NCBI GenBank assembly: GCA_037379345.1
Contig: CM074511.1
Location: 18,414,001 to 18,478,000 of the forward strand
Reading direction: 5' to 3'
Source: Perna viridis
Lineage: Eukaryota
Length of the DNA stretch: 64,000 nt
Shown here: piece by piece, positions 31,501-58,500 of the stretch
Layout of the letters: every line of letters begins with the position of its first letter
Position numbering within the stretch: the first letter of the stretch is position 1
Program-made: the position numbers

Positions 31501-34500
31501 ATTGGAACGTTAGTCAATTATTGATGGTACAATGTGATGTTATAAATATATTTCTTCTTCCAAGTCTATTGTTCTGATTCTAGCCTTTTAGGTGTGAACC
31601 ATCAATAAAAAGTCCTAATGTAAAAATCTCATGAGCTGAGTATCAATCAGTTGACATGTTTTTGAGATCTAGAAAGTCCAAAAGAGACTTTGAGATTCAG
31701 GAGTAAATCATAGTCTGACAATGTTCACAATATTCCCTATAGTCATGAACTGTTTATTGTGTGGTAATCTTAATGGGAGTACAGTTCATGAGAGGGCAGA
31801 TAATGAAAGTTAAAATACATGTACTTAAATGATGCATTCAGATAAGAAGTGATTGATCATCAGAAAATGTTCTGATCAGGCAGATTCCTGTGGAACTAAT
31901 TAATTACTCATTCTGTAGGTACCGGTATGTTTTTATTGTAAACTGTTGATGTAAATAACGTGTATATGCACATTGTACACATAATCGCACATAATACGTC
32001 AGTGAAATTAGGGAAAGTGTCAAAATATTTGGAAATGAGTAATCTTTTTGTAGTAGTAAAATAAGTTGTTTGCCTTGATAAATGTGGGGGTGGTTGAGTT
32101 TAATATGCATAAAATTATTGATAAGAACTGTTGTAGTAGTATTTAGCTAGTGATATTTTTTTCTGGAATTTATAGAATGTGCTCAATGCTTTTGTGATTT
32201 AGATCAGAATTTATTTTTGAATTCAGTGTGGGAGTAGAGGAGATTAAAAAATAGATTTTATTGACATTACTGATTTAACCTGTTATTTGAGAAGTTCAGG
32301 AACTTTCAGATTTGTTTTGATGTATTTGATATCTTTAATCTTATGAAGGTGTAAAGAGATTCTCTGTCTGGTGCCTTCAGATAAGGACTGAAAAATCTCT
32401 TTCCCAGGTACAAATTGCACATAATATCATTTTGTGGTCTTGCCTATTTGAAAACATTTTTCATAGTACTTGGGACATGTGTTTACATTGTAATACAGTC
32501 AAAATTTTGTTAGTGTTTGTGGCCTGTTTATTTTGTTTTAACACATTGTTTTTGTATTTTTTATTGAATATTGAATTTCTTACAACCATAATAAACTGGT
32601 ACTCCTTAAACCTGTACTGAACAAATCTCTTATTAAATTGGCTGATCTTGATGAGAGTTAGAATTATACAGTGTCAGAAAAAAATGCCCACTTGCTCATT
32701 AAATCTGGAAATGACTGGAAACTAAGATTTCCTCTGGACAAGGAAAAGATTTAGTCAAATAGGAGGAAACATGGAGAAAGGGATTGTGAATTTTGGAGCG
32801 AGATAAAATCACCTCAACTTTTCAACAGGGCAACTTACAGCAAAAATTATTTCTAACACTGTTACACTTCTAATACATACATCTTCTCTTTCAAACCTTT
32901 CTATATAAACCTTTAACACTGGATTGTAACAGAGGATATAGAAACCTAAAACTAAGGTCTGATCTTTGATATATGAATTGTTCAGTAGTAGGGCATGAAA
33001 AGGGATATCAAAGCATTTAAAACTTATCAATTATGTAAAAGTTTAGTGTTGCAAAGGTACATTTAAATTGTAACTGAAGAACATCCTATAGTAGAGTAGT
33101 AAGAACAAGAATTTGTGAAGGAGTATCTGGATATTTAAAAGGGAAGGTTCAAACCATTAGACCACAAATATTGTTTATTCTTATAGACTTTTTGGTAAAC
33201 AATAAACAATAAATTGAGTCATAATTTAAATGTTTATGGAAGTACATGTACTTCCCAAGTACACTAGATGAACATAATCAAATATCTACTATACACCATA
33301 GTATCAAGAGTATAAATCACTAAACAAATACAAAATGTATAGATGTTTGCTAAGGTCAGTAGAGTAAGCTCCCCTTCTTGAAGCCCCAGGCTGATGCATG
33401 GTGCATTTGTATTCATAGTAGATTGATAGATTGTAATGAAATTCTGCTGGAATTATCTGAACTAGAAATTCATCTTTCCTGAGGCTTTGTAGATCTATCA
33501 TAGATCATACTGTTTTAAATTGAATTGATGATATTTGTAATAGTTTTGTCAGCACTTGTCCCATTATTATTGTATTTTATGTAATATGTAAATTTATTCA
33601 TATGTTCTGTGTTGTATGACATGTCGTAATATCCTTGGGTGGGGTACTTTACTGTAGTATGTGTAGTATGTAAAATGAATTACATTACTTACATTGTACA
33701 TATTTGAACTGTGAATATAATTTGACTTTCATTCAAATCTTGAAGAATGTTTCAACAGGGAAAAACAAAACAAAACAATATACCAGTTGCTGGTAAATAG
33801 TATTTACTGGTACTGAAGACTTGGTTCTTTTTTGTTTATTTTGTTTATACAAACTCGTAGCTGCATTCTATTATTTCTTTGAGGTTTCCAAGGAGATCTT
33901 TGCTACCAAAAGAAAACACATACTTCTTACAAAATCAAGAAAGTTGATAAACATATGGCCTAACTCTTTACATAATGATATTTAATTACACTGTACATGT
34001 ATGTTGTTATCACAGTAAAAAAAAATGCCACAACGAAGATTATCACCTTTTTCAGATTCTTGTACACTTGAACTATGTATCAAGTTTTTTTACCATGTTT
34101 TTTAAATTGTCTTTTAATTGTATATTTATATTGTTCTTTGTCTAATTTAACACATTTTGAATTATAGCTATATGTTGATGCAGCTGGAAATGTCACTGAT
34201 CCATACTTTTGAAGTTTGTCTTTTGAATGACATTAAGACTTATCATTCATTTTATTTCCATTTCAGATTCTTCAGATATTGTAGATGGTAACTTGAAGCT
34301 GATCCTTGGTCTGATATGGACCCTCATTTTACATTACTCTATCTCCATGCCCATGTGGGAAGGAGAAGAACCAGGACCCAGTGAAGGTGGACCCACACCA
34401 AAACAGAGATTGCTCAACTGGGTACAGAGCAAGTGTCCAGAACTGCCCATTAAGAACTTTAACAATGATTGGAACGATGGTAAAGCCATCGGTGCTTTGG

Positions 34501-55500: not shown

Positions 55501-58500
55501 CCAAGGATGAAGGCAAAGCTAAAGTTGATGTTAAATATGCTGGACAGAATGTTCCTGGCAGGTAGGGAATTAAAAATGTGTAATTTGGTAGGGACATTTT
55601 GAAGTGGGTAAAGTGTCAAATCTCTCATTAAACTGAAAGTGATGAATTTGCTTCTTCTCTCAAATTGGTCATGATGGCCCTAAGAACTTGGACGATGTGT
55701 ACTCATGATTAGATTACATGTACTAAATAGAGTTAAGATAATTTTCTGATCTAGACCTGGCCCATTCAGCTGATTTAATCATTTATACATTGTTTTCTCT
55801 TAATTTAAGCAACTGAAAATTTATGTATGTGATAAATTTTAGTTTATCATAGTTTTATGTGATAGGAAATTATATTGTAAATTTTGAAGCAAAAAATTAT
55901 AAATGCGTGTTTTTTATTTCAGTCCATTCCCAGTGGAAGTTTTCCCAGGTGTAGATGCCAGCAAGGTGCTAGTTTCTGGTCCAGGTGTTGGCAAGAATGT
56001 GTACGCCAGTATGCCTGCTACTTTTACCATTGATACACGTAATGCTGGAAATGCTCCTCTTGATGTTGTTGTACAGGTAAGACAAACTTGCTGAACAAAT
56101 GTTAGTTTAGTTTTCTTGTCTGTCTGGCTGTCTTTCCCTATTGATACCTGTAATGCTGAAAGTCCTCCTGTTGATGTTGTACCGATAAGCCAGGCCTTCT
56201 GTGTAGAAGTTTTCTGTCCGTTTGTACATAGGACTGTTAATCATTGATACCTGTAGTGCTGGAAATGTTTTCTTTATGTTTCATACTGGTAGAAGTATTT
56301 TTTAGTTTTCTGTTTGTCTGTCTGTTTGTCAGCTCATGATTAATAATGATAAATGCTCCTCTTGATGTTTTGTACTGATGCAAGTTTTTCTGTAGTATTC
56401 TTCAGTACAGAAAGATATTTCACCTTCTTCTCATAAGGATAACAGAAATTGTTGCTTTATAGGCTGCATTTTTGATAATATGGACTGAGTGTCAGCTACA
56501 TCCTATATATGTAGAATGTAAGGCCAGAACTATAAATGGCTAAAATATTCTGACATAAGTGACAAAAATTGTCAACATGGAAGTGGATGATTGCGCAAGA
56601 GCGGAGGCACTGTTTTGTCTGAAATAAGACATTGAGCTCCATTCATCATAGACATAGCTTAATATCATATTAAATGTTTCAAGATTTATGAAAGGGAGTT
56701 GGGATACTTTTCATGTTAAACAAGGTGCAATAAGAACTGAATGAATTGTTTTCATTATCTTTGTTAATGGTATATAAACTTCAAAGGAGATTAAATATGA
56801 TCTGGAGCTGATAAATTCATGATCAGTTTCAAACACTTTAGCTGACATTATAATTACTGGTTTCTTCTTAATGAATTGATCTTTGGCCAATAACTTTGAA
56901 TGATATATTAGTGTATTGTATTACTGATTCTTACTTTTCATCTGTCAGTTGTGTATTGTTTATTGCCACTATGATAGGTGTTAACCTGTTCAAGTTTTGT
57001 TTTATCATTCGGCATCAATTTTTTTTTCTTATGCAAACAAATACAGTTTTTTTTTATACATTTATCTATCTTTTCCTGTTAACGAGTCTTGTATCATGGA
57101 AGTGTTGAAAGAAAAAGATTTGAACAGTCTCAATATTTGTTTTGCAATAAGTGTGAAATGTACTTTCCGTGTTTATAACTTTATGATGATGTACAATGTC
57201 TTAGGAATGAAATACTACATTTGTTGTAACTTCTATATTATAAAATCAGTTGCTTTTGATAACTTTCTCACAAATAAATAAACCTGAATGTGAAAGTTGA
57301 AGCAATGAAATGAAAAAGATTGCCGATTACATCCATAATATGGTAAGATTTTAAATGTATTTCTCTTAGAATTTAAAAAAAATTGGAGTTTACATTTCTT
57401 CTGGAATACTATAAACTGATTTATTTTTGCTGATATTTTTTGTGATTTAGGATGTCAATCCATTTCTGTGGCCATTTTGTGACTGTCATTGATGTATTAT
57501 GAAACATACTTTTTCATTTTGATTTATTTTTGCACTTTTTTGTTGCACATGAAATTATTGAGAATTAATTGTTTGTGAAAATTACTTAAATGTATATAGG
57601 CTATTAATAGATGTTCAATTTCCAACTTTCCTTGCTTGTTTTCAGAGACCCGATGGTTCCTTCATCAAACCACTAGTACAGGACAATGGGGATGGAACAT
57701 ACACTGTACAGTATGTACCTGATGATTTGGGTACATACGTACTCCGAGTCAAGTTTGCTGGCAAAGAGGTACCTAACTCACCATTCAAGGTCACTTCTCA
57801 CCCAACTGGTGATGCTAGCAAGTGTGTTATTACAGGTAAGTATCCTAGTAACAACTCATATTCTAAAGTTACCAAATGAATTGTAGTGCTAGTTTTTATA
57901 TGTAAGGTAGCTTTGACTTGCTGCAAAAAAAAATCTGAGCAATGTGCCGTTTTTCACTTTGCACCTAATGGTAAAGTTTTTAAACTTAAATTTTGATAGT
58001 CCCGCTGGAGGAGGTAGACACTAGGGTAAAGGACATAAGTCTTGTAATCAGTGATATGTTTGTATCATATTCAGTTCCACCAAAAGCCTTTCAAGCTGTC
58101 ATTTAGAAATAGAATAGAAGGAAATCAGTTCAAGTTACATGATAGTAATCTGATATTGATGTAAAATGCTGAAAACAAACATTCCAATGATTTGTAAGAG
58201 TTGTGTCCCTTACCCTAGATCTACCTCCTTAAACCAGTTGAAATAATTAAATACAATCAGCACAGTTGTATCTTGAATTTATGAATTTCATTAAACCATT
58301 TGAGGCACTTGCTTTCATCTTTTTATATAATTTGAAATTGATCAATTATGAATATACAAAAAATGTATTAAAAATTACTCAGAAAACAATTACTTCATTT
58401 TCACAGAGGGTCTTGAGAACAAAACAGTACAAGTGAACAAGGAGACTGTTATATGTGTTGATGCCTCACAAGCTGGAGATGGTAAAGTTACCTGCCGTAT

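What the first reader, a model, noticed from the sequence alone, without database searches (positions are those of the whole stretch)
34473..56380. Repeated tandem amplification of exon-end plus 5' splice-site junctions (four events in one gene)
Seen: four unrelated repeats each start inside an exon, cross its donor and run into the intron: 34473-34662 (65 bp x3), 35783-36167 (about 56 bp x7), 52896-52984 (53 bp x2) and 56029-56380 (about 105 bp x3-4, eroded). All are on the donor side and show different degrees of decay, and distal copies often lose the GT. That is 4 of 24 donors. Inference: either a mutational process focused on donor junctions (for example transcription- or splicing-coupled repair slippage) or selective tolerance because the first donor keeps the frame. 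It could be a source of new splice sites or introns.
Basis: partly seen in the sequence, partly recalled or inferred. Interest (0 to 1): 0.7.

Follow-up and report, generated by a model that had tools for sequence, protein, structure and literature searches.

The report
Minisatellites spanning splice donors in filamin
Four short tandem repeats in one filamin-type gene each copy the end of an exon together with its splice donor into the following intron; single cases of this are already known in human genes, so finding four together is a curiosity and not a new mechanism.

Summary
A filamin-type gene (24 exons in the window, + strand, 18479-58654) carries four unrelated tandem repeats. In each, the first unit contains the last 19-56 nt of an exon, its donor, and the first 15-55 nt of the intron. 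They sit at exons 2, 3, 18 and 22, which is 4 of 24 donors. Each repeat is far beyond chance (scores 46-111; null maxima 27 or less). Two side claims need correcting. GT is kept in 9 of 12 distal copies. One weak acceptor-side candidate also exists, at exon 8.

Within this gene, 4 of 7 short-unit local duplications span a donor, against 0.2-0.5 expected (nominal P about 1e-5 to 2e-3). That figure is post hoc. A genome-wide look would be expected to produce roughly 0.3-5 such genes by chance. The donor-versus-acceptor bias is not significant (P = 0.13 to 0.38).

This is a known kind of feature. Human F7, 6-16, CBS, LAMIN B2 and PDGF have minisatellites whose first monomer spans a donor, and in F7 the most upstream donor is the one used (PMC1557585). 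The best reading is ordinary tandem duplications that are tolerated because the first donor still gives the normal mRNA. A mutational process aimed at donors is neither shown nor excluded. RNA evidence, read-level checks and the genome-wide test could not be done here.

The parts
18479..58654 (+). Filamin-type gene: 24 exons inside the window (two CH domains, then filamin/ABP280 Ig-like repeats). The gene probably continues beyond the window.
   Evidence: Exon model from frame-consistent donor/acceptor pairing. 23 of 24 exons, searched one at a time, match Pfam CH or Filamin; exons 5 and 11 fall below the curated cut-off. Exon 3 matches solved filamin CH2 domains.
34469..34663 (+). Array 1: 65 nt x 3. 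The first unit is the last 50 nt of exon 2, the donor 34518|34519 (CAG|GTAAGA) and 15 nt of intron. Copy 2 has an identical 9-nt donor motif (+65 nt, frameshift if used). Copy 3 has lost the GT.
   Evidence: (score 111 against null maximum 27).
35783..36167 (+). Array 2: 7 units of 51-61 nt. The first unit is the last 19 nt of exon 3, the donor 35801|35802 (CAG|GTACAA, weakest of the 24 donors at 5.1 bits) and 42 nt of intron. Five of six distal copies keep the identical 9-mer and all six keep the GT. The sites at +117 and +276 would be in frame and open.
   Evidence: D1; D3 is a 159-nt block at 95%; score 63.
52888..52993 (+). Array 3: 53 nt x 2. The first unit is the last 35 nt of exon 18, the donor 52922|52923 (AAG|GTAAGT) and 18 nt of intron. 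Copy 2 keeps the GT with a weaker motif (AAG|GTAAAT, 8.5 against 11.9 bits; +53 nt, stop before the site).
   Evidence: D11, 85% over 47 nt; score 58.
56021..56400 (+). Array 4: units of 111 and 103 nt, then two eroded copies. The first unit is the last 56 nt of exon 22, the donor 56076|56077 (CAG|GTAAGA) and 55 nt of intron. Copies 2 and 4 have lost the GT; copy 3 keeps a weak one (CTG|GTAGAA, 4.4 bits).
   Evidence: D8, 82% and 63%; score 46.
42814..42921 (+). Weak acceptor-side candidate. A 31-nt copy at 42814-42844 in intron 7 resembles 42891-42921, which spans the exon-8 acceptor 42900|42901 (25 of 31 nt, spacing 77). The upstream copy has GG where the acceptor has AG.
   Evidence: D14; score 32 against null maximum 20; 0 of 5000 null draws. 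Not recovered by blastn-short.
34801..35005 (+). Comparison case: wholly intronic 49-nt x 4 array in intron 2, unrelated to any exon.
   Evidence: D2; no exon match above shuffled controls.
41464..41831 (+). Comparison case: wholly intronic repeat in intron 6, about 148 nt x 3.
   Evidence: (D7, D9).
48650..48751 (+). Comparison case: wholly intronic 49-nt x 2.1 array in intron 15, starting 99 nt after the exon-15 donor.
   Evidence: (D10).

Best explanation
These are four independent, ordinary tandem duplications of different ages. Each happened to take in the end of an exon, its 5' splice site and the start of the intron. Two of them were later amplified into small minisatellites by duplication within the array.

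They persist because they do not change the mRNA. The most upstream donor is still the one spliced, so every further copy lies inside the intron as a silent pseudo-donor and drifts.

The same upstream-site-first rule predicts that a duplication across an acceptor would add sequence to the mRNA unless the upstream AG is destroyed. That would make donor-side events easier to keep than acceptor-side ones.

Four in one gene is partly chance and partly ascertainment, because the window was flagged for this pattern.

Shown: the repeats, their position on the donors, and that the first donor gives the conserved protein. Inferred: which donor is actually used, the duplication mechanism (slippage or unequal exchange), and the reason for the donor bias.
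For: - Repeats are real and strictly local. No unit recurs elsewhere in the window, so they are not dispersed elements.
- Ages differ. Differences from copy 1 are 5/65 and 7/66 in array 1, 10/53 in array 3, and 41/111 or more in array 4 with gaps counted.
- Array 2 carries a 159-nt three-unit block duplication at 95%, which shows growth from within the array.
- The donor sits at varying depth in the unit (exon share 50, 19, 35, 56 nt). The donor is cargo, not a breakpoint.
- The first donor gives the conserved product. Exons 2, 3 and 4, searched separately, cover residues 100-180, 182-213 and 215-301 of one Filamin-B chain, 4b7l_A. Pfam Filamin profile positions run on across junctions 18/19 and 22/23.
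- No distal motif is stronger than its authentic donor.
- The donor motif does not decay faster than the rest of the unit: 15/108 against 238/776 differing positions, gaps counted. This fits silent, neutral copies.
- The only acceptor-side candidate has lost its upstream AG.
- Precedent from PMC1557585 (abstract, Introduction, Discussion read): five human genes have a minisatellite whose first monomer spans a donor. In F7 the identical pseudo-sites are functional but unused, because the most upstream site is selected.
Against: - Tolerance alone does not explain why donor-spanning units outnumber wholly intronic ones (4 against 3) when the target is about 20-40 times smaller. Expected numbers are 0.22-0.48 or 0.10-0.28.
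- Allowing a two-fold longer detectability for a copy anchored in a constrained exon still leaves P about 5e-5 to 3e-3.
- Array 1 copy 2 is an exact copy of a strong donor only 65 nt downstream, and its use would shift the frame. That it is harmless rests on analogy with a mammalian gene, not on RNA data from this organism.
- The published scanning rule was established in mammalian cells. The F7 paper itself notes that two further pseudo-sites are used in 6-16 and CBS.
Confidence: 0.62

Rival explanations
1. A mutational process in this lineage is focused on 5' splice sites. An example would be breaks or polymerase stalling linked to transcription or to U1-bound nascent RNA, repaired with short tandem duplication. 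It would seed repeats at donors more often than elsewhere.
For: Nominal excess of donor-spanning units in this gene: 4 observed against 0.1-0.5 expected. Two of the three wholly intronic arrays also lie within 300 nt downstream of a donor: 34801 is 283 nt after the exon-2 donor and 48650 is 99 nt after the exon-15 donor.
Against: - There is no common breakpoint relative to the donor (exon share 19-56 nt, intron share 15-55 nt).
- Unit sizes are unrelated to each other.
- The statistic is post hoc. About 0.3-5 genes with four or more such events are expected by chance among 20,000 genes of this size.
- The donor/acceptor asymmetry is not significant.
- No such process turned up in six literature searches.
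Confidence: 0.13
2. The arrays are kept by selection. Reiterated donor-like sites would recruit U1 snRNP to support a weak authentic donor or to protect an AT-rich intron from premature cleavage, or they would serve as alternative 5' splice sites.
For: - Array 2 sits on the weakest of the 24 donors (5.1 bits), and five of its six distal copies keep all 9 motif positions.
- The array-2 sites at +117 and +276 are in frame and open.
- Across all arrays the motif is no more decayed than the rest of the unit.
Against: - Motif retention in array 2 is explained by youth: the 159-nt block is 95% identical, and exon-derived flanks are equally conserved.
- Arrays 1, 3 and 4 sit on strong donors (11.9-12.4 bits).
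- Older copies lose the GT (3 of 12).
- An in-frame insertion of 39 or 92 residues would fall inside the conserved CH2 domain, where the solved homologue has none.
Confidence: 0.1
3. These are intermediates of intron gain or intron sliding by tandem duplication (the proto-splice-site AGGT model).
For: Each unit contains an AG|GT or similar junction. Tandem duplication is a documented route to new introns (PMC3265369, search listing and start of abstract only; PMC2891723, abstract read; PMC2812944, passages read).
Against: The introns concerned are 1185-1614 nt long and their acceptors lie far outside the arrays. The arrays only lengthen existing introns. No new intron is bounded by two copies of a unit.
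Confidence: 0.05
4. Assembly artefact: falsely expanded or chimeric repeats.
For: None specific. Short tandem repeats are a known weak point of assemblies (general knowledge).
Against: Copies differ by 5-40% with indels and have higher-order structure. That is the signature of diverged genomic copies, not of collapsed or duplicated reads. The four sites are independent.
Confidence: 0.03

Closest known systems
Donor-spanning intronic minisatellites of human genes: F7 intron 7 (37-bp VNTR), interferon-inducible 6-16, CBS intron 13, LAMIN B2, PDGF (as listed in PMC1557585, Introduction read)
   Same: Head-to-tail repeat whose first monomer contains the exon-intron boundary, so the donor is reiterated in the intron. 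Unit sizes are similar (37-100 bp there, 53-111 bp here). In F7 the repeated donor is weak, like array 2 here. The first donor gives the normal product.
   Different: Those cases have one array per gene; here there are four in one gene. Those are mammalian; this is an AT-rich (about 32% GC) genome that I do not take for human. Donor use and copy-number polymorphism are shown there and are untested here. Three of the four arrays here have only 2-4 copies, and one is heavily eroded.
Internal tandem repeats at exon-intron boundaries in human segmentally duplicated genes (PMC2812944, passages read)
   Same: Minisatellite-size units lying on exon-intron boundaries that lengthen or remodel introns.
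   Different: That study found them through differences between recent paralogues and reports alternative transcripts and novel introns. No paralogue or transcript evidence is available here.
Intron gain by tandem genomic duplication of a segment with an AGGT proto-splice site (PMC3265369, listing and start of abstract; PMC2891723, abstract)
   Same: Short tandem duplication that reiterates a splice-site motif.
   Different: There the duplicated segment is exonic and the two copies of the motif become the donor and acceptor of a new intron. Here the donor and intron already existed and the acceptor lies outside the array.
Tandem splice sites such as NAGNAG acceptors (PMC2423196, search listing only; the NAGNAG name is recalled)
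   Same: Reiterated splice motif at one junction.
   Different: Those repeat over a few nucleotides and commonly yield two isoforms. Here the spacing is 51-111 nt and most distal sites would shift the frame.

Membership tests
Donor-spanning intronic minisatellite (F7 intron 7 type) | Head-to-tail tandem repeat with a unit of tens of nucleotides | tested here: met
   TRF finds arrays 1 and 2. The repeat finder finds all four, with spacings of 65; 51-61; 53; 103-111. The tile scan agrees.
Donor-spanning intronic minisatellite (F7 intron 7 type) | First monomer contains the authentic exon-intron boundary | tested here: met
   Donors 34518, 35801, 52922 and 56076 lie 50, 19, 35 and 56 nt into the first unit. 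That these are the authentic donors is supported by colinearity with chain 4b7l_A and by Pfam profile continuity.
Donor-spanning intronic minisatellite (F7 intron 7 type) | Donor motif reiterated in downstream monomers (pseudo-sites) | tested here: met
   GT is kept in 9 of 12 distal copies. The 9-mer is identical to the authentic one in 6 of 12: array 1 copy 2 and array 2 copies 2-6.
Donor-spanning intronic minisatellite (F7 intron 7 type) | Only (or mainly) the most upstream donor is used in the mRNA | not testable with these tools
   No transcript data are available. The only indirect evidence is that the first donor gives the conserved protein.
Donor-spanning intronic minisatellite (F7 intron 7 type) | Copy number polymorphic in the population (VNTR) | not testable with these tools
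   Only a single sequence is available.
Intron gain by tandem duplication (AGGT model) | The new intron is bounded by the two copies of the duplicated motif | tested here: not met
   The acceptors of introns 2, 3, 18 and 22 lie at 35704, 37416, 54315 and 57646, which is 1041-1322 nt beyond the array ends.
Filamin (gene identity) | N-terminal tandem CH domains followed by many filamin/ABP280 Ig-like repeats | tested here: met
   CH matches in exons 1 and 2; Filamin repeat matches in exons 4-24. The best solved relatives are Filamin-A/B/C.

The most novel reading that the evidence does not exclude
In this lineage, short tandem duplications are genuinely concentrated on 5' splice sites. One possible cause is that the donor region of the DNA or nascent RNA is a hot spot for duplication-prone repair. 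Another is that the upstream-site-first rule for both splice sites filters junction duplications so strongly that donors accumulate them while acceptors do not. Either way, genomes would carry an evolutionary footprint of the direction of splice-site choice, and donor-side minisatellites would be a regular source of cryptic and alternative donors.
Probability: 0.15. Interest if true: 0.7.

Novelty: new member of a known kind. Interest (0 to 1): 0.3.

Why it matters
Taken one at a time, these arrays are further examples of a feature described in several human genes, so they add little. The cluster is useful in two ways.

- It gives four natural constructs in one gene, with an identical strong pseudo-donor at +65 nt, six reiterated weak donors, and older eroded copies. 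RNA data on them would show whether the upstream-donor-first rule seen in mammalian cells also holds in a distant animal.
- It frames a simple genome-wide test, donor-spanning against acceptor-spanning against intronic tandem duplications, that I did not find reported in six full-text searches. A clear donor excess would be an evolutionary read-out of how splice sites are chosen. No excess would close the matter.

Tried and rejected
- **TRF and self-BLAST.** TRF at minimum score 30 and whole-window self-BLAST recovered only arrays 1 and 2. I switched to seed-based repeat finding and to local alignment with empirical nulls.
- **Dispersed elements.** I tested whether the array units are dispersed elements or copies of other filamin-repeat exons. 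Only local matches appeared.
- **Intronic arrays as decayed exon copies.** The best exon matches were no better than shuffled controls.
- **Faster decay of the donor motif in distal copies.** It does not decay faster: 15/108 against 238/776. Copies within an array are not independent and gaps dominate the second figure, so I draw no conclusion about conservation either.
- **Coordinate error.** In one search the rows for array-4 copies 3 and 4 used out-of-register coordinates. One search replaces them.
- **Other genes or RNA genes that could enlarge the sample.** There is no convincing second gene, no Rfam family and no tRNA.
- **Structure and complex prediction.** Not used, because nothing here turns on a fold.
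- **Related loci.** The one open contig collection holds bacteria and archaea only, so it was not searched. No orthologous locus could be examined.
- **Paper supplements.** Closed. Table S3 of PMC2812944, which lists boundary repeats, could bear on how common donor-side cases are.
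Full report
**What the window is.** The window has about 32% G+C and no N. It carries one clear gene, on the + strand. Stop-to-stop reading frames, an HMM built from two repeats that each lie whole within one exon, and frame-consistent pairing of GT and AG sites gave a model of 24 exons from 18479 to 58654. That model has 24 donors and 23 acceptors.

I searched the model exon by exon and did not build or search a joined coding sequence. 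23 of 24 exon translations match Pfam CH (exons 1, 2) or Filamin/ABP280 repeat (exons 4-24); exons 5 and 11 fall below the curated cut-off. Exon 3 (32 residues) matches solved filamin CH2 domains. The gene is therefore a filamin.

I do not take the contig for human. Its composition is far more AT-rich than I recall for human DNA (about 41% G+C, recalled). Its most conserved domain also differs from human Filamin-A/B at many positions in the printed alignments.

**The observation.** All four repeats are real.

| Array | Span | Units | Exon nt + intron nt in first unit | Donor |
|---|---|---|---|---|
| 1 | 34469-34663 | 65 nt x 3 | 50 + 15 | 34518\|34519 |
| 2 | 35783-36167 | 7 units of 51-61 nt | 19 + 42 | 35801\|35802 |
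| 3 | 52888-52993 | 53 nt x 2 | 35 + 18 | 52922\|52923 |
| 4 | 56021-about 56400 | 111, 103, then two eroded copies | 56 + 55 | 56076\|56077 |

TRF and self-BLAST saw only the first two arrays. The seed-based repeat finder saw all four.

I then ran a symmetric test. I took each of the 24 donor junctions and 23 acceptor junctions and aligned it to the adjacent 180-500 nt of intron. The null was 300 draws of unrelated intron sequence. The four flagged donors scored 111, 63, 58 and 46 against null maxima of 27 or less. The other 20 donors were unremarkable.

One acceptor stood out weakly. A 31-nt stretch at 42814-42844 resembles the exon-8 acceptor region 42891-42921 (25 of 31 nt, score 32). None of 5000 null draws reached that score, but blastn-short did not report it. 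Its upstream copy has GG where the true acceptor has AG.

**Which donor is the real one.** Exons 2, 3 and 4, searched separately against solved structures, align to residues 100-180, 182-213 and 215-301 of one Filamin-B chain, 4b7l_A. The single-residue gaps are the split codon after exon 2 and the first residue of exon 4. So the first donor of arrays 1 and 2 gives a protein colinear with the solved domain, with nothing inserted.

For array 4, exon 22 ends near position 45 of the 93-position Pfam Filamin profile and exon 23 starts near 46. For array 3, exon 18 ends near position 73, and exon 19 has about 25 residues before its next repeat begins. The first donors are therefore the ones that make whole repeats.

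**Anatomy of the copies.** GT is kept in 9 of 12 distal copies. It is lost in array 1 copy 3 and in array 4 copies 2 and 4. I scored donors with a matrix built from the 20 unflagged donors of this gene:

- The authentic donors of arrays 1, 3 and 4 are strong (12.4, 11.9 and 12.4 bits).
- The array-2 donor, CAG|GTACAA, is the weakest of all 24 (5.1 bits).
- No distal copy outranks its authentic donor. Array 1 copy 2 and array 2 copies 2-6 are equal to it; the rest are weaker.

Use of a distal site would shift the frame, or meet a stop, everywhere except array 2 at +117 and +276 nt. Those two sites are in frame and open. The in-frame offset at array 4 copy 2 (+108) has no GT and a stop before the site.

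Differences from copy 1 fall on 15 of 108 donor-motif positions and 238 of 776 other positions, with gaps counted. The motif is not being destroyed faster than its surroundings. Because copies share ancestry and gaps dominate the second figure, I do not read this as conservation either.

The arrays differ in age: about 8-11% differences in array 1, 19% in array 3, and 37% or more in array 4. Array 2 contains a three-unit, 159-nt block repeated at 95%. Its seven copies therefore came from growth within the array, not from seven events at the donor. There are four independent junction events.

**Is the clustering more than chance?** I tiled the whole window with 60-nt tiles every 10 nt and aligned each tile to its own downstream 600 nt. 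The effective threshold was a score above 40. Inside the gene this gave seven short-unit local duplications:

- four spanning donors;
- three wholly intronic (34801-35005, 41464-31, 48650-48751);
- none spanning an acceptor.

It also found a series of whole-exon duplications. In the 18.5 kb upstream of the gene it found five repeat clusters, one of them low-complexity.

If a unit of the observed size fell at random on positions that do not disrupt an exon, the expected number spanning a donor is 0.22-0.26 over the whole gene, or 0.41-0.48 over the exon-dense 34-59 kb. That gives P(4 or more) from 3e-5 to 6e-4. Using the density of non-exonic repeats in the whole window as background gives 0.10-0.28 expected and P from 4e-6 to 2e-4.

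These figures are post hoc, because the window was flagged for this pattern. Among 20,000 genes with this many donors, 0.3-5 would show four or more by chance. Further mundane factors, such as protection from deletions next to an exon, would raise that number (inference). The donor-versus-acceptor contrast is not significant: 4:0 gives P = 0.13 and 4:1 gives P = 0.38.

**What is known.** A full-text search led to Borensztajn et al. 2006 (PMC1557585; I read the abstract, Introduction and Discussion). Its Introduction states that several genes hold minisatellites whose first monomer spans an exon-intron boundary, so that the donor is reiterated in the intron. It names human 6-16, CBS, LAMIN B2, PDGF and F7.

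In F7 intron 7, a 37-bp unit repeats a weak donor five to nine times, and only the most upstream site is used. [quoted passage not shown] Their Discussion also recalls that scanning is widely accepted for 3' splice sites. In 6-16 and CBS, two further pseudo-sites are used.

De Grassi and Ciccarelli 2009 (PMC2812944, passages read) report 27 intron modifications by tandem repeats at exon-intron boundaries in human segmentally duplicated genes. Intron gain by tandem duplication is a separate, documented route (PMC2891723, abstract read; PMC3265369 and PMC4974935, listing and start of abstract only).

In six searches I found no genome-wide comparison of donor-spanning and acceptor-spanning tandem repeats. 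Subscription journals and supplements were not covered.

**Most likely explanation.** These are four ordinary tandem duplications of different ages that happened to include a donor. Two of them expanded later. They are kept because the first donor still yields the normal mRNA, while the distal copies sit in the intron and drift.

If both splice sites follow the upstream-site-first rule, a donor-side duplication is silent at once. An acceptor-side duplication would add a unit to the mRNA unless the upstream AG is lost. The one acceptor-side candidate here has lost exactly that AG. This step is inference from the published rule and is not shown for this organism.

The model leaves one thing open. 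Tolerance explains why junction duplications can survive, but not why they should outnumber intronic ones. So I keep a targeted mutational process and a selected role for pseudo-donors as rivals at low probability.

**What stayed unchecked.**
- Transcripts, raw reads, population data and orthologous loci.
- Related eukaryotic sequences.

Noticed in passing
window 46690-50600 (exons 13-17): Five tandem copies of a one-exon filamin repeat. Exons are 285-294 nt (exon 17 is longer), nucleotide identity between copies is 71-75%, and start-to-start spacing is 572-1113 nt. The introns between them are not alignable. This looks like a lineage-specific expansion of one Ig-like repeat by whole exon-plus-intron duplication.
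   Followed up: partly
window 42637-42660: A hexanucleotide repeat (TTGGTG x 4, 94% matches) runs across the exon-7 donor 42657|42658. The donor GT is part of the last hexamer. This is a microsatellite-scale donor-spanning repeat in which the last copy, not the first, is the donor.
   Followed up: partly
window 42814-42921: Weak acceptor-side counterpart of the finding. An intronic copy of the exon-8 acceptor region lies 77 nt upstream (25 of 31 nt), with its AG changed to GG.
   Followed up: yes
window 1-523: A 44-nt satellite, 11.9 copies at 95% matches, cut off by the start of the window. Its unit matches nothing else in the window.
   Followed up: partly
window 34801-35005 and 48650-48751: Two wholly intronic 49-nt arrays lie close behind donors, 283 nt after the exon-2 donor and 99 nt after the exon-15 donor. 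They have no similarity to any exon. Intron 2 therefore holds two unrelated arrays in its first 500 nt.
   Followed up: partly
window 56049-56067 and 56351-56369: Array 4 copy 4 shares an exact 19-mer with copy 1, although copies 2 and 3 are more diverged in the same stretch. This suggests gene conversion or a non-sequential history.
   Followed up: no
window 56309-56330 and 62798-62818: (TCTG)n microsatellites, one inside array 4 and one 6.4 kb downstream. They share a 24-nt match at 96%.
   Followed up: no
window 18819-34266: The first intron of the model is 15,448 nt, ten times the typical intron of this gene. No convincing coding frame, RNA family or tRNA was found in it.
   Followed up: partly
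window 1707-2060: A + strand open frame with a coiled-coil-like stretch. It has only sub-threshold matches to bZIP_1 and DivIC profiles. It may be an exon of an upstream gene.
   Followed up: partly
window 8320-8664 and 10319-10493: Three further two-copy local repeats upstream of the gene, at spacings of 98, 141 and 91 nt. I used them as background events in the density estimate.
   Followed up: partly
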